Below, one piece after another: positions 1-58,984 of a stretch of 64,000 nucleotides of DNA. The DNA is taken from NCBI GenBank assembly GCA_045125595.1, contig JBGVNN010000010.1, positions 43,879-107,878 of the forward strand. The letters run 5' to 3'. Under the pieces are notes generated by a model. It saw nothing but the letters and a program-made list of their open reading frames with translations. It was not told the DNA's origin and did no database searches. The translations under genes and the position numbers were made by a program. The DNA comes from Candidatus Egerieisoma sp. (GTDB lineage Bacteria > Bacillota > Clostridia > UBA1212 > UBA1255). Each line of letters opens with the position of its first letter. Within the stretch, counting starts at the first letter, position 1.

Positions 1-7
1 AACCTCC

Positions 8-376
8 TTATTTCTTCTTGCCTGCTATAGGTCTAGCGGGACCTTTTCTCGTTCTGGCATTAGTTTTTGTTCTTTGTCCTCTAACGGGAAGTCCCATCTT
101 ATGACGTCTGCCTCTATAGCAACCAATTTCCATAAGACGCTTAATGTTGAGGGAAACTTCTCTACGAACGTCACCTTCAACAACATATTCTTTATCTATG
201 ATATCTCTTAACTTACCAACCTCATCGTCAGTTAAGTCTCTAACTCTTGTGTCTGGATTGATACCGGTTTTAACAAGGATTTCACTTGCTGTTGTTCTAC
301 CTATACCGTAAATGTATGTCAATCCGATTTCAACACGTTTCTCTCTCGGCAAGTCAACACCTGCAATACGAGCCAT
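8..376 (-). CDS. rpsM: 30S ribosomal protein S13; true start at [10 protein letters not shown], the upstream ORF-track extension is not coding
   Basis: Translation [27 protein letters not shown]...[23 protein letters not shown] is canonical S13; sits downstream of infA-rpmJ. Confidence 0.9.
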
Positions 377-565
377 TCGAAAATACACCTCCGTAAAATT
401 CAAGCTTAATTAATGTTTTAAGCTTACATAACTATAATAATAAAAATCTATATACAACACTTCAAGGCTCATGTTAATCATGCAGCCGCACCTCGAAATG
501 ATTATAATCGTTGCTTCTACGCTCTATCTTTGCTGAAGATTTATACGAGAAGCCCAATAGATAAA

Positions 566-682
566 TTAACCTTGCTTTTGCTTATGTTTCGGATAAGCAT
601 CGCAAATAACCATTACTTTACCTTTTCTTTTAATAACTTTGCACTTATCGCAAATTGGTTTAACTGACGGTCTAACTTTCAT
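566..682 (-). CDS. rpmJ: 50S ribosomal protein L36 (38 aa, Zn-binding C+ form); absent from ORF track because it is under 60 aa
   Basis: Manual translation of minus strand: [38 protein letters not shown], canonical L36 with CxxC...C...H; located between infA and rpsM as expected. Confidence 0.85.
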
Positions 683-696
683 GGTACAATCCTCCT

Positions 697-912
697 TCAC
701 TTTCTCCACTTGATACGACCACGGTCTAAATCATATGGGGACAATTCCAGGGTAACACGGTCACCCTTAACAATTCTGATATAATTCGTTCTGAGCTTGC
801 CTGATATATGAGCAACTACCATATGTCCGTTTGGAAGCTCAACCTTGAAAACACAGTTGGGCAATACTTCGGCTATAACGCCTTCAACTTCAATTAAGTC
901 TTCTTTTGACAA
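697..912 (-). CDS. infA: translation initiation factor IF-1
   Basis: 71 aa, S1-like OB fold sequence ...[39 protein letters not shown]... Confidence 0.95.
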
Positions 913-925
913 AATGTCAACCTCC

Positions 926-1687
926 TTAAAGTGTTACGATTAATGGCTCGTCATCTGTCACAATTACAGTATTTTCATAATGTGCAGACAACTTACCGTC
1001 CTTCGTATAAACTGTCCATTTATTGCCTGCAAGGGATATTTCATCTGTGCCTTGATTAACCATAGGCTCAATTGCAATAGCCATACCTGCAGCAAGTCGG
1101 TGTCCTCGCCTGTTTGTCCTGTAATTCGGAACCTCAGGATTCTCGTGGAGTTCTCTTCCAATACCATGTCCTGTATATTCCTTTACAACCGAATAACCAA
1201 AAGATACAACATAATCTTCAATTGCTCCTGAAATATCAGAAACTCTATTATTCGGTTTAACAAACTTCAGCCCTTCAAAAAAGCTCTGCTTTGTAACTTC
1301 AATAAGCTTTGAAGCTTCATCGGAAACTTTACCCACAGGAAATGTCCTGGCGGCATCTCCATGAAAACCGTTATAATATGCGCCGACATCGACACTTATT
1401 ATATCGCCTTCTTTAAGAACCCTGCCGTCCGGTATACCGTGAATAACTTCTCCGTTGACTGAAGCACAAATAGCTCCGGGGAACTTAATACCGCCGTAAT
1501 AATTAGGCACACCTAAAAACGACGGAAAAGCGCCACTCCTTATTATATAGTTTGTGGCGATTCTGTCAAGCTCTTTTGTAGAAATTCCCGGAAAAATATT
1601 TTTTTCTATTTCTTCGAGAACTCCTGCTACAATCTTACCGGATGCTTTCATCTTTTCGATTTCCGATTTTGATTTAATATTTATCAT
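926..1687 (-). CDS. map: methionine aminopeptidase type I
   Basis: 253 aa, pita-bread fold motifs ([31 protein letters not shown]). Confidence 0.9.
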
Positions 1688-1691
1688 ATTT

Positions 1692-2342
1692 TTAGATTCC
1701 TTTTAAACCTAACGCATACAGTGTATTCTGTAAAGATTCGTCAATTGAATTTTCACTGAGTACATTCATAAGTTTGCCTTTTTCTCTGTAAAATTCTACA
1801 AGAGGCTCAGTTTTTTTATGATAAGCAGCAATTCTGTTTCTGATTACATCAGGCTTGTCGTCATCTCGTTGCACCAATTGTGCACCGCATTTCTTACATT
1901 TATTATCTTCTACCGGATTAAACTCCAAGTGATAAGTTTCACCGCATGCCGGACAAACAATTCTGTTTGACAAACGCTTAACAACCGCCTCGTCATCAAT
2001 TACAATATTAACAACTTTGTCAATTTTCTTATTCTCCGCTGCCAAAATCATTTCAAGCATTTCTGCCTGTACTAATGTTCTGGGAAAGCCATCAAGAATA
2101 AAACCATTTAAACAATCAGCTTGTTGAATGCGATCCTTAACGATTTGCACCGTTACTTCATCGGGAACTAATTCACCTTTTGAAATATATGAATCAGCTA
2201 ATATACCTAACTCTGTATTTCTGCGGATATTATCTCTGAAGATTTCACCGGTGGAGATATGAGGAATTTTTAATATTTCTGATAAACCGGCAGCCTGCGT
2301 ACCTTTACCGGCACCCGGCGCGCCCAATAATATTAAGTTCAT
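1692..2342 (-). CDS. adk: adenylate kinase with Cys4 zinc lid
   Basis: P-loop GAPGAGKGTQA, lid CPACGETY...CKKCG; position between secY and map is conserved. Confidence 0.95.
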   Translation of the reverse strand: MNLILLGAPGAGKGTQAAGLSEILKIPHISTGEIFRDNIRRNTELGILADSYISKGELVPDEVTVQIVKDRIQQADCLNGFILDGFPRTLVQAEMLEMILAAENKKIDKVVNIVIDDEAVVKRLSNRIVCPACGETYHLEFNPVEDNKCKKCGAQLVQRDDDKPDVIRNRIAAYHKKTEPLVEFYREKGKLMNVLSENSIDESLQNTLYALGLKGI

Positions 2343-2365
2343 CTCATTACCTCCACCAAGTGTTA

Positions 2366-3700
2366 TTAATCCAAGAAACCTTTGTAGTTTCTCATAAGGA
2401 GCTGTGACTCCAACTGACGAACAGTTTCAAGAGCAACACCTACGAGAATGAGCACTGTTGTGCCTCCAAACCAAAGATTGATACTTGCTATATCAGCACT
2501 GAAGTAAGAAATAATCTTTTGAAGGAAAGACGGGAATACTGCAAGTATTGCCAAGAAAATTGCACCGAACCAAGTAATTCTTGTAGATGCTTTCTTAATA
2601 TATTCAGCAGTAGGAGCACCCGGTCTGAGTCCGGGAACAAAGCCACCGTTTTTCTTCAAGTTGTTAGATATATCTACCGGATCAAAGTAAACAATATTAT
2701 AGAAGAATGTAAATCCTACAATAAGAAGTGCATATACTATAATATATCCCCAACCTTGTCCTTGTGAGAAGCTGTTAATAAAACCGGTGAAACCTGTTGT
2801 GCTTCCTGACTTACCAATGAATGCTACGATTGTTGCAGGGAACTGTAACATTGACATAGCAAAGATAATAGGAAGTACTCCCGAAGAGTTTACTTTAATC
2901 GGAATATGTGTACTTTGGCCACCGTAAATCTTTCTGCCAACAACTCTCTTTGCATATTGAACAGGTATACGACGCTCGCCGCCCTCAACCCAAACAACTG
3001 CAAAAATTACTGCAAGGAATACAGCAAGAATTGCTATAACATAAATTATTCTTACAGGCAATACTGCTGTCATACCGTTACCGGCAATTATTTCGTACAA
3101 CATCAAAGCTGCACTGGGAGCACCGGCTACAATACCTGCAAAGATAATCATTGATATACCGTTACCAATTCCTGTCTCAGTAATCTTTTCACCTAACCAC
3201 ATAAGTACTGATGTACCTGCTGTAAATGAAAGAACTACAATGAAGAATGTGAAAACATCAAAGCTACCTTGTGCAGCGAAAATGTTGTTAGTGCTTCCTT
3301 GAATGTTAAAATACATCATTATTGATTGGAACAATGCCAATGCAAGTGTTGTAAGCTTTGTAACTTTGCTGAGTTTTTTTCTTCCCTCAGGACCTTCTTT
3401 TTGCCATCTCTCAAATACAGGGATAGCAACAGTAAGAAGCTGAACGATAATTGAAGCGTTGATATAAGGGCTGATTGTCATTGCAAACAGAGAAACCTGT
3501 TGGAAAGCACCGCCTGAAAGCATATCATACAACTTAAACATACCGTTGTTAGCCAACTGACTGAACGCATTCTCAGAAAGTCCGGGAACAGGAATAAAAC
3601 ATCCTATTCTGAAGATGATTATAAGCAAAAGTGTCATGAACATTTTCTTTCTTAATTCTTTTACACGAAAAGCATTAAGGATAATGTCTTTAAACTTCAT
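2366..3700 (-). CDS. secY: preprotein translocase subunit SecY
   Basis: 444 aa polytopic membrane protein, SecY signature; follows rplO in spc operon. Confidence 0.95.
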   Translation of the reverse strand: MKFKDIILNAFRVKELRKKMFMTLLLIIIFRIGCFIPVPGLSENAFSQLANNGMFKLYDMLSGGAFQQVSLFAMTISPYINASIIVQLLTVAIPVFERWQKEGPEGRKKLSKVTKLTTLALALFQSIMMYFNIQGSTNNIFAAQGSFDVFTFFIVVLSFTAGTSVLMWLGEKITETGIGNGISMIIFAGIVAGAPSAALMLYEIIAGNGMTAVLPVRIIYVIAILAVFLAVIFAVVWVEGGERRIPVQYAKRVVGRKIYGGQSTHIPIKVNSSGVLPIIFAMSMLQFPATIVAFIGKSGSTTGFTGFINSFSQGQGWGYIIVYALLIVGFTFFYNIVYFDPVDISNNLKKNGGFVPGLRPGAPTAEYIKKASTRITWFGAIFLAILAVFPSFLQKIISYFSADIASINLWFGGTTVLILVGVALETVRQLESQLLMRNYKGFLD

Positions 3701-3701
3701 C

Positions 3702-4145
3702 TTAGATCACCTCAGCCTTTCCTCCTGCTTTTTCTATTTTTTCAGATGCACTCTTTGTAAAGCAAGTAGCTTTTACTGTAAGGTTCTTTGTCAATTCGCC
3801 ATTACCGAGAATTTTAACTCCGTCATAGAGCTTATTGATAAGACCTGCTTCTGCTAAAGCAGCAGCATCAACTACGGCACCATCTTCAAAAACGTCAAGA
3901 GCAGAAACATTAACTTCAGCATAAACATTTGCAAAGTTTTTGTTGTTAAAACCTCTCTTTGGCATTCTTCTGTATAAAGGTGTCTGTCCACCTTCAAAGC
4001 CCGGTCTTACTCCGCCGCCTGAACGAGCTTTCTGACCTTTGTGTCCTCTACCGGCCGTTTTACCGTTACCGGATCCGTGACCTCTGCCTTTTCTGTATGC
4101 TTCGCGACTTGAACCAGCCGCAGGACGTAATTCGAAAAGCTTCAT
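3702..4145 (-). CDS. rplO: 50S ribosomal protein L15; start at [14 protein letters not shown]-track N-terminal extension not coding
   Basis: [43 protein letters not shown]...; upstream extension would overlap rpmD. Confidence 0.9.
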
Positions 4146-4158
4146 GGTAACACCTCCG

Positions 4159-4338
4159 TTATATTTCTTCAACATTAACGAGATGAGCAACAACCTTAAT
4201 CATACCTCTGACTGCAGGTGTGTCATCACGCTCTACAGAGCTGCCGATCTTTTTAAGACCTAAAGCAGCAACTGTAGCTTTTTGATTTTTAATTACACTG
4301 TTCGTACTTTTTGTAAGAGTAATTTTCAATTTAGCCAT
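4159..4338 (-). CDS. rpmD: 50S ribosomal protein L30 (59 aa), not in ORF track
   Basis: Manual translation [59 protein letters not shown]; fills the gap between rpsE and rplO. Confidence 0.85.
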
Positions 4339-4352
4339 TGTTAATTTCCTCC

Positions 4353-4856
4353 TTATTCAAGTATCTCGTCAACAGGTTTGCCACGTAATTTAGCAACTTT
4401 CTCTGCTGTAGTAAGAGAGCTGAGTGCATCGATTGTAGCACGTACCATGTTGATAGGATTGTTTGAACGAAGTGACTTTGTTCTGATATCACGAATTCCT
4501 GAAAGCTCGATAACGGCTCTTACAGGACCACCTGCGATAACACCGGTACCTTCTGCAGCCGGCTTAAGAAGAACTTCGCCTGCACCGAATTTACCAACGA
4601 TTTCGTGGGGAATTGTTGTGCCAACCATAGGAACAGTGATGATATTTTTCTTCGCATCCTCAACGCCTTTTCTGATAGCTTCTGTTACTTCGGCAGCTTT
4701 ACCGAGTCCAACGCCAACCTGTCCGTTTTCATTACCTACAACTACCAAAGCGCTCCATCTAAAGTTACGTCCGCCTTTTACAACCTTTGTAACTTTGCCG
4801 AGGTTTACGACTTTCTCTTTAAACTCTGATGTATTGGAATTATTATGTTCCATCAT
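4353..4856 (-). CDS. rpsE: 30S ribosomal protein S5
   Basis: 167 aa, ...[33 protein letters not shown]... Confidence 0.95.
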
Positions 4857-4873
4857 TATATCCTCCTTACGCC

Positions 4874-5242
4874 TTAGAAATTGAGGCCTGCTTCACGAGC
4901 AGCTTCAGCAAGTTCTTTTACTCTACCGTGATATCCGTAACCACCGCGGTCAAATACCACTGTTGTGATTCCTGCAGCAAGAGCTTTCTCAGCTACGAGC
5001 TTACCAACCTCTTTAGCAGCCTCGATGTTTCCGCCAAATGCAATTTTCTCTTTAATTGCACTGTCGAGCGAAGACGCAGACACCAAAGTATTTCCTGTTG
5101 TATCATCTATAACTTGAGCATAGATGTTGGAAAGACTTCTGAATACATTCAATCTTGGACGTTCAGGTGTTCCGCTGATATGCTTTCTGACACGGATGTG
5201 TCTTCTCTGTCGAATTTGATTTTTACTTAATTTCTTTGCCAT
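4874..5242 (-). CDS. rplR: 50S ribosomal protein L18
   Basis: 122 aa, ...[18 protein letters not shown]...[20 protein letters not shown]. Confidence 0.95.
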
Positions 5243-5260
5243 ATTGCGTCACTCCCTTTC

Positions 5261-5806
5261 TTACTTCTTAGCACCGGTCTTGCCTTCTTTACGTCTGACA
5301 ACTTCGTCAACGTACTTAATACCTTTGCCCTTATATGGCTCCGGCGGCTTCTTGCTTCTAACTTTAGCAGCAAATTCTCCAACCATTTGCTTGTTGATAC
5401 CTTTGATGATGATTTTTGTCTGAGCAGGAACTTCAACTGTAATTCCCTCAGGAGGAACCATATCAATTTGATGTGAAAAACCAACGTTCAATACGAGAGT
5501 TTTGCCTTGAAGAGCTGCTCTGTAACCAACACCGTTGATTTCAAGCTCTTTAACGTAGCCTTTTGTTACACCGTCAACCATGTTTTGAATGAGAGATCTT
5601 GTAAGACCGTGAAGAGAACGATACTCTTTCTCATCTGACTCACGTGAAACAACTACTTGACCTGCCTCGACACTGATGCCGATTTTTGAATTAAATTTTT
5701 CAACAAGGGTACCTTTTTCACCCTTTACCTGTAATGTGTTATCATCAAGAAGTTCAACTGTAACTCCTGCAGGGATAACAACAGGTTTTTTACCAATTCT
5801 GGACAT
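5261..5806 (-). CDS. rplF: 50S ribosomal protein L6
   Basis: 181 aa, [17 protein letters not shown]... Confidence 0.95.
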
Positions 5807-5875
5807 TACTTTTTTCCTCCAATCTTAAGATTCTGTACGGCTTTTTACAAGCCGTACTTTTCAGATTTATTTTTA

Positions 5876-6274
5876 TTACCAAATGTAAGCCATTACTTCT
5901 CCGCCAACGCCGAGTTTTCTAGCCTTCTTATCAGTCATGATGCCTTTTGAAGTAGAAATAACTGCAACGCCGAGTCCGCCGAGAACCTTCGGAAGCTCAT
6001 CTTTAGATGCATAAATACGAAGACCGGGCTTAGAAATTCTCTTGATTCCTGAAATAACAGGTTTCTTATTCTCTGTATATTTCAAGAAGAGTCTGATAAC
6101 GCCCTGTTTGCCGTCATCTATTGTTTGTACTTCCTTAACATAACCTTCTTCTACAAGAATTTGAGCAATCGCATTCTTAACATTTGAAGCCGGAACATCA
6201 ACTGTTTCGTGTTTTGCTGTGCCCGCATTTCTTATACGTGTTAACATATCTGCTATAACGTCAGTAATTTGCAT
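5876..6274 (-). CDS. rpsH: 30S ribosomal protein S8
   Basis: 132 aa, [17 protein letters not shown]... Confidence 0.95.
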
Positions 6275-6300
6275 TGTGCCAACCTCCTTTAATTATTCCA

Positions 6301-6486
6301 TTACCAGCTGGCTTTCTTTACACCGGGAATTTGTCCCTTGTAAGCCAATTCTCTGAAGCAAATACGGCATATACCGTACTTTCTGATATATGCATGAGGA
6401 CGTCCACAGATTTTACATCTGTTATATGCTCTCGTAGAAAACTTAGGTGTCCTTTGTTGCTTAACCTTCATTGAAACCTTTGCCAT
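6301..6486 (-). CDS. rpsN: 30S ribosomal protein S14 type Z (61 aa, Zn-ribbon CxxC...CxxC)
   Basis: [61 protein letters not shown]. Confidence 0.9.
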
Positions 6487-6500
6487 GGTCTACCTCCTTA

Positions 6501-7040
6501 TTACGAGTTGAAGGGCATACCCATCAATTTGAGCAGCGCTTTTGCTTCTTCGTCTGTTTTTGCAGTAGTTACGAATATAACATCCATACCTCTTACCTTA
6601 TCGATTTTATCATATTCGATCTCAGGGAAAATAATCTGCTCTTTGATACCCATTGCATAGTTACCTCTGCCGTCAAAAGAGTTTCCGGGAATACCGTGGA
6701 AGTCTCTGATACGGGGCAATGTGAGGTTGATGAGTTTATCAGCAAAAGCGTACATATTTGTACCTCTGAGTGTAACTTTACATCCAATGTTCATACCTTC
6801 ACGAAGTTTAAATGCAGCAACAGATTTTTTTGCTTTTGTTACAACGGGCTTTTGACCTGTGATTAAAGTAAGATCGTTTACAGCATTTTCGATTGCTTTA
6901 GGATTCTCTTTAACTTCGCCCAATCCCATGTTGATAACAATTTTCTCAAGCTTCGGGATTTCCATAACGCTCTTGTACTTGAACTGTTCCATAAGAGCGG
7001 GTGCTATTTCCTTGTCATACTTTTCTTTTAATCTTAACAT
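6501..7040 (-). CDS. rplE: 50S ribosomal protein L5
   Basis: 179 aa, [42 protein letters not shown]... Confidence 0.95.
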
Positions 7041-7059
7041 TATTATAGCCTCCCTCTAA

Positions 7060-7434
7060 TTATTTTGTGAAATCCACTGTTGAGATAACAGCACCGCAAT
7101 TTTCACGTTTACAAACACGTACTTTAATTGATTTGCCGTTTTCTTCAATTGTCTTGTGGCCTGTTCTTGTAGGCTGTCCGCATTTGGGGCAAACTACCAT
7201 AACATTTGAAACATGGATAGGAGCTTCTGTCTTAACAATACCGCCCTGCTCTGTACGACCCTTGGGTTTCTTGTGCTTGCTGACCATGTTATAACCCTCT
7301 ACGATTACTTGCTCCTTCTCAGGAATAACCGCGAGTACTTTTCCGGTAACAGTCTTAGGTTTACCGTTTTTGTCTTTTTGGCGGCGAGTATTGAGAACAA
7401 CTACTTTGTCGCCTTTTTTAATATTCATACTCAT
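7060..7434 (-). CDS. rplX: 50S ribosomal protein L24, 124 aa, carrying a Cys4 zinc-ribbon-like motif in its C-terminal half
   Basis: KOW region KKGDKVVVLNTRR...; C-terminal CPKCGQPTR...VCKRENCG where the B. subtilis protein has no cysteines. Confidence 0.9.
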   Translation of the reverse strand: MSMNIKKGDKVVVLNTRRQKDKNGKPKTVTGKVLAVIPEKEQVIVEGYNMVSKHKKPKGRTEQGGIVKTEAPIHVSNVMVVCPKCGQPTRTGHKTIEENGKSIKVRVCKRENCGAVISTVDFTK

Positions 7435-7449
7435 AATATTATCCTCCGA

Positions 7450-7818
7450 TCAAAGTACTTCGGGAGCAAGTGATACGATCTTCATAAAGTCGTTATCTCT
7501 AAGCTCTCTTGCTACAGGTCCAAAAATACGTGTACCTCTTGGATTGAGGTCATCTTTAATAAGAACAGCTGCATTTTCGTCGAATCTGATATATGTGCCG
7601 TCTTCGCGACGTACGCCTCTTTTTGTACGTACGATAACGCATTTAACAACGTCACCTTTCTTTACTATACCGCCCGGAGCAGCAGCCTTAACGGAGCAGA
7701 TGATAATATCACCGATATTAGCATAACGACGCTTACTGCCGCCGATAACCTTAATACACATCAATTCTTTAGCACCGGTATTGTCTGCTACTTTGAGTCT
7801 AGTTTGTACTTGTACCAT
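7450..7818 (-). CDS. rplN: 50S ribosomal protein L14
   Basis: 122 aa, [24 protein letters not shown]... Confidence 0.95.
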
Positions 7819-7838
7819 AACTTTTACCTCCTATGTGC

Positions 7839-8096
7839 TTAACGAGCCTTCTCGATGATTGAAGCAAGTCTCCAGCGTTTATCTTTACTTAAAGGTCTTG
7901 TTTCCATAACCTCTACAATATCGCCTACTTTAGCTTCGTTTGCTTCGTCGTGAGCCTTTAATTTATATGTGGTTTTAACAACTTTCTTATAAAGAGGATG
8001 CTTTACGCTGTCAACAACTGCAACAACGATTGTCTTATCCATCTTATCGCTGATAACCTTACCAACTCTGGTTTTTCTTAAGTTTCTCTCTACCAA
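7839..8096 (-). CDS. rpsQ: 30S ribosomal protein S17
   Basis: 85 aa, ...[21 protein letters not shown]... Confidence 0.9.
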
Positions 8097-8122
8097 ATTA
8101 AACTACCTCCTTCCGAAGCCTA

Positions 8123-8338
8123 TCACTGCTGGCCTTCAGCAATCTCTTTAGCTCTGATTGCTGTCTTAACTCTTGCAATATCACGCTTTAAGAATCTCAA
8201 CTTCATAGGGTTTTCGATTGGGCTTGTTGCGTTCTTAAAACGAAGTCTGAAGAGCTCCTCTTTCAAGTTAGCTTCTTCTTTTTTCAATTCTTCAAGTGAC
8301 ATTTTATTTAAGTTTTCCTTAAATTCTTTAGCCTTCAT
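8123..8338 (-). CDS. rpmC: 50S ribosomal protein L29
   Basis: 71 aa, [35 protein letters not shown]...; overlaps rplP stop. Confidence 0.9.
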
Positions 8339-8768
8339 TTACATCACCCTCCGTTTCAACTATCTCGCGTGCAATTACTTTACACTTAACGGGCAATTTA
8401 TGCATTGCGAGACGAAGCGCCTCTCTGCATGCCTCTTCACTAACACCTGCTACTTCGAAAAGTACTCTGCCGGGTTTAACAACTGCTACCCAGAACTCAG
8501 GTGAACCTTTACCGGAACCCATTCGAACCTCAGCAGGTTTCTTTGTTACCGGCTTATCAGGGAAGATTTTAATCCAAACCTTACCGCCTCTTTTAATAGA
8601 ACGTGTAAGTGCGATACGGGCAGCCTCGATTTGGTTACTTGTAATCCAGCCGCATTCTGTAGCCTGGAGACCAAACTCACCATGTGAAATAGTATTGCCT
8701 CTTGTAGCAGTACCTTTCATTCTGCCTCTTTGCACTTTTCTGTGCTTAACTCTTTTAGGCATTAACAT
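8328..8768 (-). CDS. rplP: 50S ribosomal protein L16
   Basis: 146 aa, [19 protein letters not shown]... Confidence 0.95.
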
Positions 8769-8770
8769 AA

Positions 8771-9448
8771 TTATTTCTCGCTCCCTTCTGAATTCGCCTT
8801 ATCAGCTTTGATAGCAGGAAGTACTTCTCCTTTATAAATCCAAACTTTAACACCGATTTTACCGTATGTTGTATTTGCCTCTGCAAAACCATAATCAATA
8901 TCGGCTCTGATTGTCTGGAGCGGAATTGTTCCCTCATGATAGTGCTCTGTACGTGCGATTTCTGCACCGCCGAGTCTGCCGCTACATGCAGTTTTGATAC
9001 CCAAAGCGCCTGAACGCATTGTACGCTGCATAACTTGCTTCATTGCTCTACGGAAAGTTACACGCTTTTCGAGCTGGCTTGCAATGTTCTCTGCACAAAG
9101 TTGTGCATCCATATCTTGATTTTTGATTTCGAGAACGTTGATAGAAACAATTTTGCCTGTCATCTTCTCGAGTTCAGCCTTAAGCTCATCTTTGATTACT
9201 CCGCCTTTGCCGATTACAAAACCGGGTTTAGCTGTTTCAATGTTGAGAAGAAGCTTGTTAGCTGTTCTTTCGATTTTAATTTTTGAAATTCCTGCGCTGT
9301 AAAGTTTATTCTTTACATAAGTTCTTACTTTGTTATCTTCGATAAGAAAATCAGCAAAGTTTTTCTTATTTGCGTACCACTTGGAATCCCAATCTTTAAT
9401 AACTCCGACTCTAAGTCCGTGAGGATTAACTTTTTGTCCCATGTTCAA
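8771..9448 (-). CDS. rpsC: 30S ribosomal protein S3
   Basis: 225 aa, [24 protein letters not shown]... KH domain. Confidence 0.95.
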
Positions 9449-9457
9449 CCTCCTCCA

Positions 9458-9934
9458 TTAATCTCTTTCTTTCAATACTACCGTAATGTGGCTTGTTTTC
9501 TTGTTAATGCGAGTGCCGCGGCCTCTAGCAACTGCGCGCATTCTCTTGAGGGTAGGACCCTGATTTGCATAACAATCAGCTACATAAAGCTTTTCGCTGT
9601 TAAGCTCAAAGTTGTTTACTGCATTTGCTTCTGCTGAATGGAGCAACTTATAAATAAGCTCAGAAGCAGCCTTAGGTGTAAACTTAACGATAGCATATGC
9701 TTCAGCGAGATCTTTACCTTTGATAAGATCAAGAACGATCTTAACTTTTCTGGGGGAAATTCTTGCATGATTTAATGTTGCTTTTCCCTGATCTCTTCCG
9801 ATACCCAGCACTTTACGTTCACGCTTTGAAAGAATGAACGGTTTGTTACTCTGACGTGACTGGGAGTTGTATTTTTCGATGAGCTCTTCTCTTCTTGAGA
9901 GAAGCTCTGATTCACTCATAATTTTTCTTTCCAA
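9458..9934 (-). CDS. rplV: 50S ribosomal protein L22 (with N-terminal extension)
   Basis: ...ATLNHARISPRKVKIVLDLIKGKDLAEAYAIVKFTPKAASELIYKLLHSAEANAVNN... Confidence 0.9.
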   Translation of the reverse strand: MERKIMSESELLSRREELIEKYNSQSRQSNKPFILSKRERKVLGIGRDQGKATLNHARISPRKVKIVLDLIKGKDLAEAYAIVKFTPKAASELIYKLLHSAEANAVNNFELNSEKLYVADCYANQGPTLKRMRAVARGRGTRINKKTSHITVVLKERD

Positions 9935-9953
9935 GAGAAATACCTCCTTTTCA

Positions 9954-10238
9954 TCAGCGCTTAACAGAGCTGGATTTTTCGCTCTTTACATGACCTTTGT
10001 AAGTTCTTGTAGGAGCAAATTCGCCGAGTTTGTGACCAACCATTTCCTCAGTAACATATACCGGAACATGCTTTCTACCGTCATGAACAGCGATTGTATG
10101 ACCAACCATCTGAGGGAAAATTGTTGAAGCTCTTGACCATGTTTTAATAACGACTTTCTCATTTTTAGCATTCATTGCTTCGATTCTCTTCAAAAGTCTT
10201 TCTTGGACGAAAGGTCCTTTTTTTACTGATCTACTCAT
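9954..10238 (-). CDS. rpsS: 30S ribosomal protein S19
   Basis: 94 aa, [23 protein letters not shown]... Confidence 0.95.
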
Positions 10239-10255
10239 TTTGAACCTCCTTAAGA

Positions 10256-11089
10256 TTACTTACCGTTACGTCTTCTGACAATCATCTTATCAGAAGCTTT
10301 ATTTTTCTTTCTTGTCTTGTATCCGAGAGTAGGTTTACCCCAAGGAGTCACAGGTGAAGGCATACCAACTGGAGATTTTCCTTCGCCACCGCCGTGAGGG
10401 TGATCGCATGGGTTCATTACAACACCGCGAACTGTAGGACGGATACCCATCCATCTCTTACGACCTGCTTTACCAAGTGATATATTCTCGTGATCAAGAT
10501 TTCCTACTTGACCGATTGTAGCTTTACAAGCGATCGGAACCATACGAACCTCGCCTGAGCCGAGACGAACTTGTGCGAATTCGCCTTCTTTAGCCATAAG
10601 CTGTGCAGAAGCACCTGCTGATCTTGCAAGTTGTGCGCCTTTGCCGGGTTTCATCTCAATGTTGTGAATTACTGTACCTACAGGAATGTCAGCAAGTTTG
10701 AGTGCGTTACCGGGAAGGATATCAGCCTCAGAACCGGACATGATTTTGTGTCCTACTTTGATGCCATCGGGATGAAGAATGTATCTCTTCTCACCATCTG
10801 CATAAACCAAGAGAGCGATGTTTGCTGATCTGTTAGGATCGTACTCGATTGAAACAACCTTTGCGGGGATACCGTCTTTCTCTCTCTTGAAGTCGATCAT
10901 TCTGAATTGTCTTTTAACTCCGCCTCCGCGATGACGAACAGTGATTCTACCATATGAGTTTCTTCCTGAATTTTTCTTTACAGGAGCCATCAATGATTTG
11001 ATTTCGCTCTTACCTGTAATTTCCTCGAAAGCTGACACTGTCATCGTTCTTCTTGAAGGGGTTGTCGGATTATACTTTTTTATAGCCAT
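10256..11089 (-). CDS. rplB: 50S ribosomal protein L2
   Basis: 277 aa, [18 protein letters not shown]... [10 protein letters not shown]. Confidence 0.95.
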
Positions 11090-11104
11090 TTTCCTGTCCT
11101 CCTA

Positions 11105-11458
11105 TTACTGAGCGAAGCCGAAGTCTTCGATTGAATTCTTGTACTTCTTTGTCTTCTTCTCGCCGTTTACCGTATATTCAACGGGCTTAGGATCGAGGTC
11201 AATCTTAACAATTGCCTTTTTCCATTTTGCTGTATAGCCAACTGCCATACCTGATGCCTGTCTACGGCTTCTCTTTTTGCCGTCGTAACGCATTGTGTTA
11301 ACTGACAAAACTTTAACGTCGAAAATCTTCTCAATTGCTTTTTTAACATCAACTTTAGTAGCGTTTATATCTACAACGAAAGTATATTTACCTTCTGCAA
11401 CTGCTGATGTACTTTTTTCTGTTATATGGGGACGAACTATAATATCAAATTCGTTCAT
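11105..11458 (-). CDS. rplW: 50S ribosomal protein L23 (117 aa, C-terminal extension of about 25 aa)
   Basis: MNEFDIIVRPHITEKSTS...; overlaps rplD stop. Confidence 0.9.
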   Translation of the reverse strand: MNEFDIIVRPHITEKSTSAVAEGKYTFVVDINATKVDVKKAIEKIFDVKVLSVNTMRYDGKKRSRRQASGMAVGYTAKWKKAIVKIDLDPKPVEYTVNGEKKTKKYKNSIEDFGFAQ

Positions 11459-12105
11459 TATGCGTACACCTCCGAGATTTTGCTTAAAGCGTCTTTTGTT
11501 ACGATAAATTTGTTGTGGTTCAATATATCGTATACATTGATTGTGTTAACGTAAGCTGTATCAACGCCCTTAATGTTACTTGCTGATTTAACAACGTTAA
11601 TATCCTTCTCAGGAATTACAACAAGTGCTGTGCTGTCTACACCAATGTTTTTGAGTACGTTAACCATGTTCTTTGTTTTGATCTCATCAAAGCTGAGCTT
11701 TTCAAGTACGATGATATCGTTGTCATTAGCTTTGCTTGTAAGAGATGATTTAAGAGCAAGTCTCTTTACTTTCTTAGGGATTGTGTAGCTGTAATCTCTG
11801 GGCTTAGGTCCGAACACGATACCGCCGTGAATCCACTGTGCAGATCTTGTGCTTCCCTGTCTTGCACGGCCTGTACCCTTTTGTCTGTAAGGTTTCTTAC
11901 CGCCGCCGCTTACTTCGCTTTTTACCAAAGTGGAGTGTGTTCCTTGACGTTTGTTAGCCAAGTTGTTAACAACTGCCATGTGCATGCAGTGTGTGTTAAC
12001 TTCAACTCCGAATATATTGCTGTCGAGCTCGATTTCCTCGACTACTTTACCTTGCATGTTTAATACATTAACTTTTGGCATAATTTCTTCCTCCTCCTGC
12101 GTCAA
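11458..12105 (-). CDS. rplD: 50S ribosomal protein L4
   Basis: 215 aa, position and sequence (…GTGRARQGSTRSAQWIHGGIVFGPKPRDYS…). Confidence 0.9.
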   Translation of the reverse strand: MTQEEEEIMPKVNVLNMQGKVVEEIELDSNIFGVEVNTHCMHMAVVNNLANKRQGTHSTLVKSEVSGGGKKPYRQKGTGRARQGSTRSAQWIHGGIVFGPKPRDYSYTIPKKVKRLALKSSLTSKANDNDIIVLEKLSFDEIKTKNMVNVLKNIGVDSTALVVIPEKDINVVKSASNIKGVDTAYVNTINVYDILNHNKFIVTKDALSKISEVYA

Positions 12106-12734
12106 GCTTTAACAGATTCTCTGATCTCAAGCAATCCGCCCTTAGGTCCCGGAATTGCGCCTTTGACAAGAAGAAGATTCCTCTCGCCGTCAACTTTAAC
12201 TACTGTAAGATTCTGAACAGTGACTCTTTCTGAACCCATATGACCAGGCATTTTCTTTCCCTTGAAAACCTTGCCCGGATCAGTGTTGGCACCCATAGAA
12301 CCTACGCCTCTGTGATACTTAGAACCGTGTGTCTTCGGTCCAATCTTTTGGCCGTGTCTCTTGATAGCACCCTGATAGCCTTTACCTTTAGATGTACCGC
12401 TTACATCTATGCTATCGCCATCTTTAAACATATCGGCAACATTGATTGTTTGACCGATTTCAAATGCTTCAACATCCTCAGGTTTAAATTCTTTAAGGTG
12501 TTTGAAGCCACCCATTTCCAATTTGTCGAAAACGCCTTTTTCGGGTTTGTTAAGCTTCTTCTTATCAACTTCCCCATAAGCAAGCTTAACTGCGCAGTAG
12601 CTGTCAGTTTCCTGTGTCTTCTTCTGTACAACAGTGCAGGGACCTGCAAGAACAACAGTAACCGGCGTACATTTGCCGTCTTCGTCAAAAATCTGGGTCA
12701 TACCGACTTTTGTTCCTAAAATAAAATTCTTCAT
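12102..12734 (-). CDS. rplC: 50S ribosomal protein L3
   Basis: 210 aa, MKNFILGTKVGMTQIFDEDGK... Confidence 0.95.
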   Translation of the reverse strand: MKNFILGTKVGMTQIFDEDGKCTPVTVVLAGPCTVVQKKTQETDSYCAVKLAYGEVDKKKLNKPEKGVFDKLEMGGFKHLKEFKPEDVEAFEIGQTINVADMFKDGDSIDVSGTSKGKGYQGAIKRHGQKIGPKTHGSKYHRGVGSMGANTDPGKVFKGKKMPGHMGSERVTVQNLTVVKVDGERNLLLVKGAIPGPKGGLLEIRESVKA

Positions 12735-12831
12735 TTTTAAGCTTTACCTCCTAATTGGTTATTGGTTCCCCCTTCGGGAACGTGACCGGTTTCTCATCAA
12801 TATTTAAGAAACCAGGGTAATGCGATCAGCA

Positions 12832-13149
12832 TTATTGTTTAACTTTGATTTCTATATCAACGCCTGCGGGAAGATCAAGGCGCATCAATGCATCTACTGT
12901 TTTCGGAGAAGGCATAAGGATGTCGATTAATCTCTTATGTGTTCTCATCTCGAACTGTTCTCTTGAGTCCTTATATTTATGAGGAGCTCTGAGGATAGTA
13001 ACGATTTCCTTCTCTGTGGGCAGCGGAATAGGTCCTGAAACTACTGCGTCTGTACGCTTAGCTGTGTCAACGATCTTTTGAGCTGCCTGATCCAACAATT
13101 GGAAATCATAAGCTTTCAATTTGATTCTGATCTTTTGTTTGTTTGCCAT
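12832..13149 (-). CDS. rpsJ: 30S ribosomal protein S10
   Basis: 105 aa, [45 protein letters not shown]... Confidence 0.95.
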
Positions 13150-13464
13150 ACTTTTGAAACCTCTTTCTTTTAATTAGATGTTTTTCGTTACGTATAACAG
13201 CTCGCACCCGTTTTCTTGTCACCCCGTCGTGTGTTTCATGTTCATCTCAATAAAAAAACCAAATTGAAATATCCTTCTCTTGAAGGATTTCAACCTGGGC
13301 ATAGATAAACACTTTACATACAACATGATACAATATTCAAGTGCATGACTTGTCGCCCGGTTTCACGAATCGGACATTCTCCACATGAGTTACCTGCCAT
13401 TCACGCGATCAAACGTGGGGCAGCAATCTCCTGCTTCTCAGTCTGTCAAGTCGCAACAGACAAA

Positions 13465-14568: not shown

Positions 14569-15140
14569 AAAAATACCTGCCTTCTGTCAGAATATAATAT
14601 ATTCTATCATATTTTTCATGATTTAAAAAATAATCCTTGCAAAACTCCCTGTGAAATATAAAAAAGCGTAGAAACTCTGTGCTTTTAGTAAGTAGTTGAA
14701 ACAAGATGGTTTGTGTTGTTGGAATTTTCGTACTTTTTTACTACCAAAAGGGACGAAAATTTCAATACAAGCTCACTGCGGAGTCCACCGTACGCGATTT
14801 TCGTACTTTTTACCCCGAAAAATTGTCAACGATTTTTTGTTGACTTGTTGCGCAGAAAAATTTCTTCACAATAAATGCGTTTTTGTGGGAGAAAAGAGAA
14901 ATGTTTCTCCCCAAAACAGGCATTTTTTGTGAGAAAACACTACTTCAAGCCTCTTTAATGCAACTTCAAACGACTTCTAGAGAGTTTTTCTCTACAAATC
15001 CCGGCTTTTTGTGGGAGAAAATTCACAAAGCTGTCAACGAATATAAAATTCCCAAGTCAACCGCTATAAAATTCTCAAGAAAGTTTGACATTGAACGCAA
15101 AGAAGTGTATTCTTTATATATTCTTTTATGAGGTGGAAAT

Positions 15141-22581: not shown

Positions 22582-22806
22582 TTGTCTTCGCACCTCACTG
22601 TGAGTGATAAAAATACTTATTAATCTTACCAAAACATCCGACGTTTTGCAAGATTGTTAAAAATACAATTATCAACTGCAAATAATTCTTAATAATTAAT
22701 TTCTACTCCCCATTCATCGTTAATTTATACTCATAAAAAAATTCGTACTTTTCAGACCCATCCCGGTACGAAAAAAAACAAAATCGAGGCATCAGCGAGG
22801 AGCTTC

Positions 22807-47807: not shown

Positions 47808-47839
47808 AGTATAATGCTAAACCGATTAATTGTCAATCG
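47808..47839 (-). promoter_or_regulatory. sigmaA promoter for the marR-ABC operon (-35 TTGACA 47831-47836, -10 TATACT 47808-47813, 17-nt spacer) overlapped by the pseudo-palindrome CGATTAATTGTCAATCG (47823-47839), a candidate MarR operator
   Basis: Read directly on the minus strand: cgaTTGACAattaatcggtttagcatTATACTtc. Confidence 0.5.
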
Positions 47840-47848
47840 ATTAACTAT

Positions 47849-48120
47849 TTTTTCGTACTTTTTTATAGCCTTTTGGGACGAAATTCTCACCCCGACACCT
47901 CGCTATCACGTTCAAATCATATTTTTCGTACTTTTTCATAGGCTTTTGGGACGAAATTCTCACCCCGGCACCTCGCTATCACGTTCAAATCATAATTTTC
48001 GTACTTTTTCATGGCCTTTTGGGACGAAATTCTCACCCCGATACCTCGCTATCACGTTCAAATCATATTTTTCGTGCATTTTCATGGCCTTTTGGGACGA
48101 AATTCTCACCCCAATACCTC
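47849..48120. repeat. tandem direct repeat, 73-bp unit, about 3.7 copies, about 93 percent identity
   Basis: Unit ttttcgtactttttcatggccttttgggacgaaattctcaccccgatacctcgctatcacgttcaaatcata begins at 47849, 47922, 47995 and 48068 (truncated). Confidence 0.9.
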
Positions 48121-48130
48121 TCGCACCTGT

Positions 48131-48159
48131 AACAGCAAGGCGACCTTCTTCATAATATA
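48131..48159 (+). promoter_or_regulatory. candidate sigmaK-type promoter for spoVFA: -35 AC (48132-48133), -10 CATAATATA (48151-48159)
   Basis: gtAACAgcaaggcgaccttcttCATAataTA matches AC-N16/17-CATANNNTA. Confidence 0.35.
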
Positions 48160-53158: not shown

Positions 53159-53683
53159 TTAATCATAGAAAAATTCATATTCAGGAAGTTTCTTCCATTC
53201 ATTTGTTCCTGTTAATATTTCTTCTATGCCCCTGCATACATCAAGAAATTTACGTGCTTTTTCATCGCTACTAAAGTACAGGGTATTTTCGTATACTGCT
53301 ACTTTCTTATCTATCCCTTCTGCCTTTACTGACAAAATCAAAGTTTCATACGGTGTCACCCAAATATTACGGTTTGGATCATAGACATCGGGATAGGACT
53401 CAATATCCAAATCTTCAATTAATTCCCATATTGCAGCGTACTGTTCTTCAGAAAGTTGAAGAAATGTAATATATCTATTAGGTTCGGTAGCATCTTTTGT
53501 TTTTATCAATTTTCCTGTTTTACTGTCGTACGAACTAATGCCGTAAGTATTCCATACTAAAGAGAAAGAGTAATTCGGTTCATTTTTACTTTGATTGATG
53601 ACAAATGAAACAATACTGAAAACAGCAACAAAAATGAGCGCTACCGTACAAATTATATACAAAAATCGAACATTATTTTTCAT
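53159..53683 (-). CDS. hypothetical membrane-anchored protein (start MKNNVRFLY)
   Basis: N-terminal TM, overlaps the upstream gene stop. Confidence 0.5.
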   Translation of the reverse strand: MKNNVRFLYIICTVALIFVAVFSIVSFVINQSKNEPNYSFSLVWNTYGISSYDSKTGKLIKTKDATEPNRYITFLQLSEEQYAAIWELIEDLDIESYPDVYDPNRNIWVTPYETLILSVKAEGIDKKVAVYENTLYFSSDEKARKFLDVCRGIEEILTGTNEWKKLPEYEFFYD

Positions 53684-54155
53684 TGAATATGAGCTCCTTA
53701 AGCAGGTCAATTTGTGCCTGCGTCAGTTCTGCTTGACCTTTGTCACAACGAGCATATCCCGCTGAAAAATTTATACCATAAACAATACCTAACTCGGTTT
53801 TAACATCGTATTCAGCCATACACTTGCACATTTTGTTTTTATCATATTGCAAATTTTCAAGAATATCTATCATGGTCGCAGCCGAGCTTTCTGATATAAC
53901 CATGTAAGTATTTTCATTTTTGAAATAAATGGTTGTCTGTACGTCGCTATCCGGCACTTTCTCTGTCGGTTGTTGAATAGTTGTCTGCACATCGCTATCT
54001 AACAATTCCCCGGTCGGTTGCTGACATACATCAGCAACGATCGAGGCACTATTTTCTTTATCACTCGGCATTTCCCCAAAAACCAAAACAGAGGCAGCAA
54101 CGAAAACAGCAGCAATACCTATAACGCATACCAATAAAATCCATGTTTTTTTCAT
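53673..54155 (-). CDS. hypothetical secreted/membrane-anchored protein with internal DSDVQTTI duplication
   Basis: Signal-anchor MKKTWILLVCVIGIAAVFVAA; internal repeat is also visible at DNA level. Confidence 0.5.
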   Translation of the reverse strand: MKKTWILLVCVIGIAAVFVAASVLVFGEMPSDKENSASIVADVCQQPTGELLDSDVQTTIQQPTEKVPDSDVQTTIYFKNENTYMVISESSAATMIDILENLQYDKNKMCKCMAEYDVKTELGIVYGINFSAGYARCDKGQAELTQAQIDLLKELIFNEK

Positions 54156-58905: not shown

Positions 58906-58984
58906 TAAAAAACACCCTTTCTTTTTGTCAGATACAATACTTTCGAATTGTGGAAGGGTAAACAAAAACGCCCTCCGCATTCCG

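What the first reader, a model, noticed from the sequence alone, without database searches (positions are those of the whole stretch)
14720..14825. Dispersed family of imperfect palindromic TTTTCGTAC-N(11-21)-G(T/G)ACGAAA(A) elements, always intergenic
The same hairpin-forming motif occurs at 14726-14760 (ttttcgtacttttttactaccaaaagggacgaaaa), 14796-14820 (ttttcgtactttttaccccgaaaa), 22741-22775 (ttcgtacttttcagacccatcccggtacgaa) and at the head of each 73-bp tandem unit at 47849-48120. That makes at least seven copies in 64 kb, all in non-coding DNA. This looks like a REP/BOX-like small repeat family or a shared regulator site.
Basis: seen in the sequence. Interest (0 to 1): 0.55.

Follow-up and report, generated by a model that had tools for sequence, protein, structure and literature searches.

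The report
Lineage-specific 36-bp palindromic intergenic repeat family
A real but lineage-restricted family of about 36-bp imperfect palindromes sits at three non-coding sites of this gut Clostridia genome, once amplified into a 73-bp tandem array. It behaves like REP/REPIN-type "junk or selfish" intergenic repeats rather than a conserved regulatory site.

Summary
TTTCGTMC-N17-GKACGAAA (at most 1 mismatch, spacer always 17 nt) occurs six times (14726, 22741, 47851, 47924, 47997, 48070). A seventh, internally shortened copy lies at 14797-14823. All are non-coding. Dinucleotide shuffles gave 0 matches.

The unit is about 36 nt. Its ends are nearly invariant between loci (19-21 of 21 positions) and its middle is unrelated (1-5 of 12).

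- **Folding:** only the 14.7-kb copy folds into a convincing hairpin.
- **Distribution:** the family is present in the same species and one sister species (DpaA 88% identical). It is absent from the orthologous intergenic sites of more distant relatives, where the flanking promoters are conserved. No array or cluster was found in scans of GTDB species genomes, JGI metagenomes or IMG/VR.
- **Databases:** no Rfam match. No cas or transposase gene in the window.

Best reading (confidence about 0.5): a new REP/REPIN/BOX-class dispersed palindromic repeat, amplified locally by unequal recombination.

Two oddities give it a CRISPR-like look. Both multi-copy loci have a 36-nt repeat plus 37-nt spacer (73-bp period). 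One spacer is 29/32 identical to a gut phage tail gene, but that phage lineage infects Bacteroidota, the spacers in the array are identical, and the array is static. I rate CRISPR low. A shared operator site is the other rival.

The parts
14724..14759 (+). Unit R_A1, a full 36-nt copy: ATTTTCGTACTTTTTTACTACCAAAAGGGACGAAAA. The palindrome extends to 20-nt arms (14719-14738 / 14746-14765).
   Evidence: (I2). The only copy with a strong fold.
14760..14796 (+). 37-nt unique sequence between R_A1 and R_A2. It is unrelated to the tandem array's inter-unit sequence.
   Evidence: no similarity, p 0.6-0.8. Viral scans gave only a 19-nt chance hit.
14797..14823 (+). Unit R_A2, a shortened copy. Its first 15 nt are identical to R_A1, about 10 nt of the middle are missing, and both arms are kept (ATTTTCG...CGAAAAAT). 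It starts exactly 73 bp after R_A1.
   Evidence: (D5). The same-species contig L051 begins right after it, at window 14823.
22739..22775 (.). Unit R_S, a solitary copy with symmetric half-sites: AAATTCGTAC-N17-GTACGAAAAA. Its middle is unrelated to the other copies, and it is flanked by A-runs.
   Evidence: Relatives carry a PNP_UDP_1 gene at this position instead.
47849..48120 (+). Tandem array of 3.7 x 73 bp. It holds four 36-nt units (47849-47884, 47922-47957, 47995-48030, 48068-48103). Three near-identical 37-nt inter-unit segments separate them, and the first 17-18 nt of a fourth follow the last unit.
   Evidence: The array is an insertion relative to L043/L049. It is present in the same species (L002, L028) and the sister species (L029).
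47887..47918 (+). 32-nt stretch of the inter-unit segment that is 29/32 identical (23 nt exact) to a tail-protein gene of IMG/VR phage contigs. It repeats at 47960-47991 and 48033-48064.
   Evidence: The phage lineage is Bacteroidota-associated. Treated as a probable coincidence.
47808..47836 (-). Context: sigma-70-type marR promoter (TTGACA-17-TATACT) within the conserved CGATTAATTGTCAATCGATTAAC region, immediately left of the array.
   Evidence: Conserved in L043 and L049.
48129..48159 (+). Context: conserved sigmaK-like dpaA promoter (GTAACAGC...N...CATAATATA), immediately right of the array.
   Evidence: Read from the sequence. Conserved in L029, L030, L043 and L049. The sigma-factor assignment is inference from the B. 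subtilis consensus AC-N17-CATAnnnTA (my own knowledge).

Best explanation
The motif defines a young, lineage-restricted family of miniature palindromic extragenic repeats of the REP/REPIN/BOX class.

Each unit is about 36 bp. It has two short inverted end-blocks (TTCGTACTTTT and GKACGAAA) held 17 nt apart (TTTCGTMC to GKACGAAA), around a middle that is free to vary.

Units were inserted into AT-rich spacers where they are tolerated, two of them between divergent promoters. This happened in the common ancestor of this species and its sister species.

At the marR-dpaA spacer, a unit-spacer-unit doublet was then expanded to four units by unequal recombination or slippage between units. That carried the flanking 37 bp along.

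What is shown: that the family is real, the unit anatomy, the conserved ends against the free middle, the empty orthologous sites, and the tandem amplification including flanks.

What is inferred: that the units spread by a trans-acting enzyme that recognises the end-blocks or hairpin (a RAYT or IS200/IS605-type transposase, or a similar enzyme encoded elsewhere). It is also inferred that the copies have no dedicated regulatory role. At most they passively increase the distance between the marR and dpaA promoters from about 25-50 bp to about 300 bp.
For: 1. **Real family at three independent non-coding loci.** 6 motif matches against 0 in the shuffles.
2. **Conserved ends, free middle.** Between loci the ends are 19-21/21 identical and the middle 12 nt only 1-5/12 (Fisher p 2e-4 to 4e-6). 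Homology between loci stops at a core of about 37-41 bp. The REPIN paper describes the same layout: two highly conserved inverted regions, a less conserved spacer whose length matters, and preferred next-neighbour distances (PMC3116915).
3. **Tandem cluster that includes flanking sequence**. This is the commonest higher-order REPIN arrangement (PMC3116915).
4. **The shortened copy R_A2 keeps both arms** despite losing its middle. So the arms are the unit's defining part.
5. **Empty orthologous sites.**
   - L043 (DpaA 83%) and L049 (78%) keep the marR promoter/operator and the dpaA promoter but have 0-25 bp where the window has the roughly 277-bp array.
   - L034 has a 198-bp yitT/DUF5050 spacer against 572 bp in the window.
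   - L012-L021 and L033-L037 have no copy at all.
6. **Vertical persistence in a narrow clade.** The array is present in the same species (L002, L028) and the sister species (L029).
7. **Same-species and sister-species contigs break inside or right at the units** (L002, L028, L029, L051). That would fit repeated or length-polymorphic DNA, although these are short, probably low-coverage contigs.
8. **No match to any known family.** No Rfam hit. No cluster of the motif in any other genome, metagenome or viral contig.
Against: - No transposase or RAYT is seen in the 64 kb.
- Genome-wide copy number is unknown, because only this window and short same-species contigs are available.
- Most copies are poor hairpins, whereas REP/REPIN units fold well.
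- The unit is much smaller than a REPIN. It lacks a GTAG-type 5' motif (my recollection of REP features, not tested).
- No target-site duplication or clean insertion boundary is visible at any site.
- Near-perfect ends next to a saturated middle could also mean in-situ purifying selection on a protein-binding site.
- The identical 73-bp period at two loci with unrelated spacers is not predicted by this model beyond 'preferred distances'.
Confidence: 0.5

Rival explanations
1. Operator sites of a lineage-specific dimeric (or higher-order) DNA-binding protein. Two inverted 8-nt half-sites lie 25 bp centre to centre. They occur upstream of dpaAB (four phased sites, 73 bp or about 7 helical turns apart), upstream of a polysaccharide deacetylase, and in the yitT/DUF5050 divergent region. 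This could be a sporulation-linked regulon.
For: The spacing is a fixed 17 nt in all six full copies. Half-sites are invariant while the spacer is saturated, which is the classic pattern for an operator. Most copies do not need a hairpin. Two of three loci adjoin sporulation-type genes (dpaA/dpaB and a polysaccharide deacetylase). Long-spaced palindromic operators exist, for example BirA and Bacillus PurR (my own knowledge, not tested).
Against: The sites are absent upstream of the orthologous dpaA, DUF5050-like and deacetylase genes in relatives, which keep the promoters themselves. R_A2 has a different spacing yet keeps both arms. The tandem units carry 37 bp of hitch-hiking flank, which points to duplication rather than site selection. 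The adjacent MarR's likely operator is the separate conserved CGATTAATTGTCAATCG block. No candidate regulator was identified.
Confidence: 0.2
2. Degenerate, cas-distant mini-CRISPR arrays plus a solitary repeat unit. A 36-nt partly palindromic repeat is paired with 37-nt spacers. Locus A is repeat-spacer-truncated repeat. Locus T is one repeat-spacer unit later multiplied by unequal recombination.
For: The geometry is identical (36 + 37 = 73 bp) at two loci with unrelated spacers. The downstream-most repeat is degenerate in both (R_A2 and the 48070 unit). 'Complete repeat + spacer + truncated repeat' is the described form of mini-arrays (PMC8616872). The array spacer is 29/32 identical (23 nt exact) to a tail-protein gene in five gut IMG/VR contigs; I estimate the chance expectation at about 1e-3. 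The repeat's 3' end GGGACGAAA resembles type III-A repeat ends (my recollection, not tested).
Against: The spacers within the array are the same sequence, which is the 'false-CRISPR / tandem repeat' criterion of PMC5294841. The array continues 17-18 nt into a fourth 'spacer' before native DNA. There is no shared leader, and the left flank of the array is native conserved promoter DNA. No cas gene lies in the 64 kb. No Rfam CRISPR-DR hit appears even at E<=10. No genome, metagenome or viral contig holds an array with this repeat. The same spacer is kept in a sister species, so the array is static. The matching phage's tail protein has homologues only in Bacteroidota genomes and phages, the wrong host phylum. 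The second spacer has no credible target. The middle of the repeat differs completely between loci.
Confidence: 0.13
3. Ordinary RNA hairpins: intrinsic terminators or mRNA-stabilising stem-loops.
For: The 22741 copy lies just after the tldD/pmbA stop codon and is followed by a T-run on the transcribed (minus) strand. The 14726 copy is a strong hairpin.
Against: The terminator scan finds none at 22741 or in the array. The stems are AT-rich with 17-nt loops and weak energies. Two of three loci lie between divergent promoters, where no read-through transcript is expected.
Confidence: 0.04

Closest known systems
REP / REPIN elements (with RAYT transposases) of Pseudomonas and enterobacteria
   Same: Both are extragenic. 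Both have two highly conserved inverted blocks around a less conserved, length-constrained spacer. Both occur as singlets, doublets at preferred distances, and tandem clusters of near-identical units that include flanking sequence. Both are inherited vertically within a narrow lineage (PMC3116915).
   Different: The unit here is far smaller: about 36 bp, against roughly 70-110 bp for a REPIN made of two REPs. The stem is AT-rich and weak, and most copies barely fold. The host is a Clostridia. No RAYT was seen, and only 3 loci are known.
BOX, RUP and SPRITE elements of Streptococcus pneumoniae, and bcr repeats of the Bacillus cereus group (my own knowledge, not checked here)
   Same: These are Firmicutes-specific small dispersed intergenic repeats with dyad symmetry. 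They vary in copy number and modular structure and are often near promoters.
   Different: There is no sequence similarity. Those elements are 100-150 bp or more, or modular. Here a single 36-bp module is present.
STAR-like elements and 'false-CRISPR' tandem repeats (PMC5294841)
   Same: Short direct repeats are interspersed with spacers of similar size. They are dispersed at several intergenic loci, lie far from any cas gene, and lack spacer diversity within an array.
   Different: STAR repeats are GC-rich 14-mers with a defined signature (T[GAT]TGTTG[GT]GGCCC[CA]), which is absent here.
Orphan or mini-CRISPR arrays, such as the Listeria monocytogenes orphan locus and the mini-arrays and solitary repeat units of (pro)viruses (PMC8616872; PMC5294841)
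   Same: The repeat and spacer lengths fall in the CRISPR range. One locus has the form complete repeat + spacer + truncated repeat. The loci are cas-less and conserved at a fixed core-genome position. One spacer shows similarity to a phage.
   Different: The spacers in the array are identical. There is no leader. No related canonical array was found anywhere. The middle of the repeat is unrelated between loci. The phage match is to a phage lineage of another phylum.

Membership tests
REP/REPIN | Short palindromic units confined to extragenic space and over-represented against chance | tested here: met
   All 7 copies are non-coding. 6 motif matches against 0 in the shuffles.
REP/REPIN | Conserved inverted blocks with a less conserved spacer of constrained length | tested here: met
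   Ends 19-21/21 identical, middle 1-5/12 identical. The spacer is always 17 nt in full copies.
REP/REPIN | The unit folds into a stable hairpin in ssDNA or RNA | tested here: inconclusive
   The fold is strong only for 14726 (z -5 to -6). The other copies give -3 to -4 kcal/mol, z -1.4 to -2.6.
REP/REPIN | High copy number (tens to hundreds) across the genome | not testable with these tools
   Only 64 kb plus short same-species contigs are available. The species was not found in the GTDB or JGI scans.
REP/REPIN | A cognate RAYT (IS200/IS605-like Y1 transposase) encoded in the genome, often flanked by units | not testable with these tools
   None among the window's proteins. The rest of the genome is unseen.
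CRISPR array | Near-identical repeats of 23-47 nt, regularly spaced by spacers of similar size | tested here: met
   36-nt repeat plus 37-nt spacer, period 73, at two loci.
CRISPR array | Spacers within an array are different from each other | tested here: not met
   The three full spacers differ from each other by only 1-2 nt, and a fourth is the same sequence truncated.
CRISPR array | cas genes adjacent, or a canonical array with the same repeat elsewhere | tested here: not met
   No cas domain in the 64 kb. The exact-pattern scans of GTDB, JGI and IMG/VR gave only isolated chance hits. The rest of this genome is untested.
CRISPR array | The repeat belongs to a known CRISPR direct-repeat family | tested here: not met
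   No Rfam CRISPR-DR hit at E<=1 or E<=10.
CRISPR array | Spacers match mobile elements of the host | tested here: inconclusive
   There is one 29/32 match to a phage tail gene. That phage lineage is Bacteroidota-associated. The other spacer has no match.
Transcription-factor operator (regulon motif) | The site is conserved upstream of orthologous genes in related species | tested here: not met
   The motif is absent at all three orthologous positions in relatives that keep the promoters. It is present only in a sister species.
Intrinsic terminator | GC-rich stem, short loop and U-tract at the end of a transcription unit | tested here: not met
   The scans find none at the units, apart from an incidental 5-bp stem overlapping R_A2. 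The loops are 17 nt.

The most novel reading that the evidence does not exclude
The units may be products, or still substrates, of a CRISPR-type spacer-insertion process acting on dispersed solitary repeats far from any cas locus. A 36-nt repeat would have been duplicated around a 37-nt captured fragment at two separate core-genome sites. One fragment would derive from a gut phage tail gene. The array would then have been multiplied by recombination and retained across a speciation event. This would be a cas-less, scattered 'mini-CRISPR' system in a spore-forming gut Clostridia.
Probability: 0.12. Interest if true: 0.6.

Novelty: new member of a known kind. Interest (0 to 1): 0.3.

Why it matters
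Small dispersed palindromic repeats are well described in proteobacteria (REP/REPIN) and in a few Firmicutes (BOX, RUP, bcr). They are barely described in gut Clostridia.

A new, very small family with clear empty-site comparisons is useful in three ways. It can serve as a strain-typing and assembly-break marker. It is a natural case for studying how such elements arise and amplify. It is also a warning for CRISPR and regulon-motif predictors: the array would be called a CRISPR by geometry, and the motif would be called a 'regulon' by motif finders.

It also shows that about 280 bp can be inserted between the marR and dpaA promoters of a sporulation operon without disturbing the conserved promoter sequences. 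If the CRISPR-like reading were right, the finding would be considerably more interesting.

Tried and rejected
1. **Known RNA families.** Rfam at gathering threshold on the whole window, then at E-value threshold on the loci. The loci gave only sub-threshold generic-hairpin microRNA hits.
2. **Wider distribution.** Exact scans with TTTCGTACTTTT-N13-GKACGAAA found 9 singletons in GTDB species genomes, 6 in JGI metagenomes and 1 in IMG/VR. All were in unrelated phyla and are consistent with chance. The source species is evidently not in those collections.
3. **CRISPR spacer targets.**
   - BLAST of both spacers against GenBank phages found nothing.
   - IMG/VR exact scans gave a 23-nt hit for the array spacer.
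   - I first took that hit as strong support for CRISPR, then down-weighted it. The tail protein's homologues are exclusively in Bacteroidota genomes and phages.
   - The locus-A spacer gave only a 19-nt hit that does not extend.
4. **Repeat against plasmids and phages.** Only chance-level hits.
5. **Literature search for the sequence strings.** Only primers.
6. **Diverged copies in relatives.** An nhmmer profile of the six units against all 50 fetched loci found none.
7. **Homology of the inter-unit sequences between loci.** None.
8. **Promoter reading.** I compared the two blocks 17 nt apart by eye with sigma-70, ECF and sporulation sigma consensus sequences, and with Spo0A, LexA, PurR and BirA boxes. 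None fits convincingly. This rests on recollection and is not a test.
9. **MarR as the binder.** Rejected as the likely explanation, because a different block that is conserved across species overlaps the marR promoter.
10. **Protein-coding reading.** The ORFs over the array (47814-48155) and at 14883-15131 are not coding. For the second, the sister species carries an indel in that region that is not a multiple of 3.

Full report
**Context.** The window (38.7% G+C) comes from a spore-forming Clostridia.
- The S10/spc ribosomal-protein operon lies on the minus strand (1-13149), with an S10-Clostridia leader. A T-box leader sits at 58994-59246.
- The closest named relative by DpaA is 'Candidatus Egerieisoma faecipullorum', at 69% identity.
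- The genes around the finding are ordinary housekeeping and sporulation genes. They include yitT, a DUF5050-like protein, HAD, CorA, RsfS, tldD/pmbA, a polysaccharide deacetylase, mreBCD, PBP2, marR with two ABC exporters, and dpaA/dpaB.
- No cas, transposase or integrase domain is present in the 64 kb.

**Observation.**
- The motif is best written TTTCGTMC-N17-GKACGAAA. It occurs six times with at most one mismatch, always with a 17-nt spacer: 14726, 22741, 47851, 47924, 47997 and 48070.
- No match occurs in 60 dinucleotide-preserving shuffles. The sub-motifs are 3-4 fold enriched.
- The seventh copy (14797-14823) shares its first 15 nt with the 14724 copy. It has lost about 10 nt of its middle but keeps both arms.
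- All copies are non-coding. The stray half-motif hits at 3091, 4301 (inside rpmD), 23518 and 38187 are single blocks in coding sequence.

**Anatomy.** Aligning the loci gives a unit of about 36 nt (ATTTTCGTAC-TTTT...-GGGACGAAAT).
- Homology between loci stops at about 37-41 bp.
- The ends are almost invariant between loci (19-21 of 21 positions). The central 12 nt are at or near random identity (1-5 of 12; Fisher p 2e-4 to 4e-6).
- The palindrome is imperfect in a consistent way: GTAC on the left and GGAC on the right, except in the symmetric 22741 copy.
- Only the 14726 copy, whose arms extend to 20 nt, folds convincingly: RNA -19.5 kcal/mol, z -6.3; DNA -9.8, z -5.3. The others give -3 to -4 kcal/mol as DNA. 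As RNA, the tandem units do not use the palindrome in their minimum-energy fold.
- The units are not terminators and match no Rfam family.

**Arrangement.**
- Locus S (22.7 kb) is a singlet.
- Locus A (14.7 kb) is a full unit, 37 unique nt, then the shortened unit. Start-to-start distance is 73 bp.
- Locus T is 3.7 copies of a 73-bp unit: four 36-nt units, three near-identical 37-nt inter-unit segments, and the first 17-18 nt of a fourth.
- Because the array ends with a unit plus a partial spacer, its simplest ancestor is a unit-spacer-unit doublet like locus A, expanded by unequal recombination between units.

**Comparative evidence.**
- An exact look-up of the S10 protein gave ten syntenic 20-kb metagenome loci. 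They are 91% identical in the ribosomal operon and 70-76% elsewhere. None carries the motif.
- A relative with an 80%-identical DUF5050-like protein has a 198-bp yitT/DUF5050 spacer, against 572 bp here. It keeps the TTGACA-17-TATTCT promoter but has no unit. It also has a PNP_UDP_1 gene where the window has locus S.
- At locus T, relatives with DpaA 83% (L043) and 78% (L049) conserve two elements: the marR promoter/operator block (CGATTAATTGTCAATCG.TTAAC) and a sigmaK-like dpaA promoter (GTAACAGC...CATAATATA). They have 25 bp and 0 bp respectively between the T-run that follows the marR block and the GTAACAG of the dpaA promoter. The window has about 277 bp of array there.
- The array is present in same-species contigs (L002, L028) and in a sister species with DpaA 88% identical (L029). 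All of these contigs break inside it.
- Another same-species contig starts exactly after the shortened unit at locus A.
- The family therefore arose after the split from the 80-83% relatives and before the split from the 88-91% sister. It occupies positions that were previously empty.

**Wider searches.** Exact scans for TTTCGTACTTTT-N13-GKACGAAA found only isolated hits in unrelated phyla and no cluster. This covered 185,579 species genomes, the JGI metagenomes and IMG/VR. The family is not a widespread element, and the source species is not in those collections.

**Interpretation.** These features match what has been described for REP/REPIN elements (PMC3116915):
- two highly conserved inverted regions around a less conserved spacer whose length matters;
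- restriction to extragenic space;
- preferred next-neighbour distances;
- singlets as decayed forms;

I therefore take a new, miniature REP/REPIN/BOX-class repeat family as the best explanation (0.5). The points against it are stated plainly. No mobilising enzyme has been seen. The genome-wide copy number is unknown. The hairpins are weak. No insertion signature is visible.

**The CRISPR-like oddity.**
- Two loci share a 36+37-nt geometry with unrelated spacers. In both, the downstream repeat is degenerate, as in mini-arrays (PMC8616872).
- Scanning IMG/VR with a 23-mer from the array spacer gave an exact hit. It extends to 29/32, inside a 1222-aa tail gene conserved in five gut viral contigs. 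I estimate the chance expectation at about 1e-3.
- Every named homologue of that tail protein is from Bacteroidota genomes or Bacteroidota phages. So the phage almost certainly does not infect a Clostridia.
- The other spacer has no credible target.
- The array's spacers are copies of one sequence, which is the 'false-CRISPR' criterion (PMC5294841).
- The left flank of the array is native promoter DNA rather than a leader.
- The same spacer is kept in the sister species.
- No CRISPR-DR model matches.
- I keep this reading as a minority view (about 0.13) and record the phage match as unexplained and probably coincidental.

**The operator rival.** Fixed spacing with a free spacer sequence is also what an operator for a dimeric protein looks like, and two loci adjoin sporulation genes. 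Several points argue against a regulon motif (about 0.2):
- the motif is absent from orthologous promoters in relatives;
- the altered spacing in R_A2 still preserves both arms;
- the tandem duplication carries flanking sequence along.

**Verdict.** 'Hairpin-forming' and 'regulator site' are only weakly supported. It is a new member of a known kind, of modest interest. A small chance of something more unusual remains if the CRISPR-like geometry proves meaningful.

Noticed in passing
window 14854-15021 (units at 14861-14895, 14903-14937, 14987-15021): This is a second, different palindromic repeat next to locus A. It has three copies of TTTCTC(C/T)CCAAA...TTTTGTGGGAGAAAA, whose arms can pair in alternative ways, like the four segments of an attenuator. 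It is conserved in the sister species (L032) and in the same species (L051), and absent from the 80% relative (L034).
   Followed up: partly
window 15033-15078: A 23-bp direct repeat (GTCAACGAATATAAAATTCCCAA / GTCAACCGCTATAAAATTCTCAA) lies just upstream of the DUF5050-like gene promoter. The sister species L032 has a roughly 24-bp deletion that removes one copy.
   Followed up: partly
window 47820-47846: The block AACCGATTAATTGTCAATCGATTAAC (direct CGATTAA repeats and TTAAT/ATTAA dyads) overlaps the -35 of the marR promoter. It is conserved in L043 and L049. It is the probable MarR autoregulatory operator and is distinct from the finding's motif.
   Followed up: partly
window 48129-48159; L030 1655-1690; L043; L049: A sigmaK-like promoter (AC-N17-CATAATATA) is conserved upstream of dpaA across relatives at 78-88% DpaA identity. 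The assignment is by consensus only.
   Followed up: partly
L030 1500-1600: In a relative with DpaA 78% identical, the region upstream of the dpaA promoter carries a different long inverted repeat. It is built of AACAAG/CTTGTT units (CAAGGAACAAGGTAACAAGTAACAAG ... CTTGTTTCTTGTTTCTTGTTAC). The dpaA upstream spacer seems to collect lineage-specific repeats.
   Followed up: no
window 47887-47918 vs L038 1138-1169 (also L039-L042): The array's inter-unit segment is 29/32 identical (23 nt exact) to the coding sequence (…SPRYHVQI…) of a tail protein in Bacteroidota-type gut phages. I estimate the chance expectation at about 1e-3. There is no biological link to a Clostridia host, so it remains unexplained.
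   Followed up: yes
window 22633-22806 vs L018 997-1833 and L033 7793-8632: Relatives carry a PNP_UDP_1 (nucleoside phosphorylase) gene between tldD/pmbA and the polysaccharide deacetylase. The window has only 175 bp there, containing the solitary unit. Separately, relatives L012-L021 carry a melibiase gene between yitT and the DUF5050-like gene that the window lacks.
   Followed up: partly
window 53928-54024: A 48-bp tandem repeat (2.0 copies, 77% matches) lies inside the ORF 53673-54155. That ORF has no Pfam match and lies just downstream of an ECF-type sigma factor gene (54744-55337).
   Followed up: no
window 58994-59246 and 13350-13448: A T-box leader lies upstream of a DAHP synthase gene (57877-59013). 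An S10-Clostridia ribosomal leader lies upstream of rpsJ. Both are above the Rfam gathering score.
   Followed up: no
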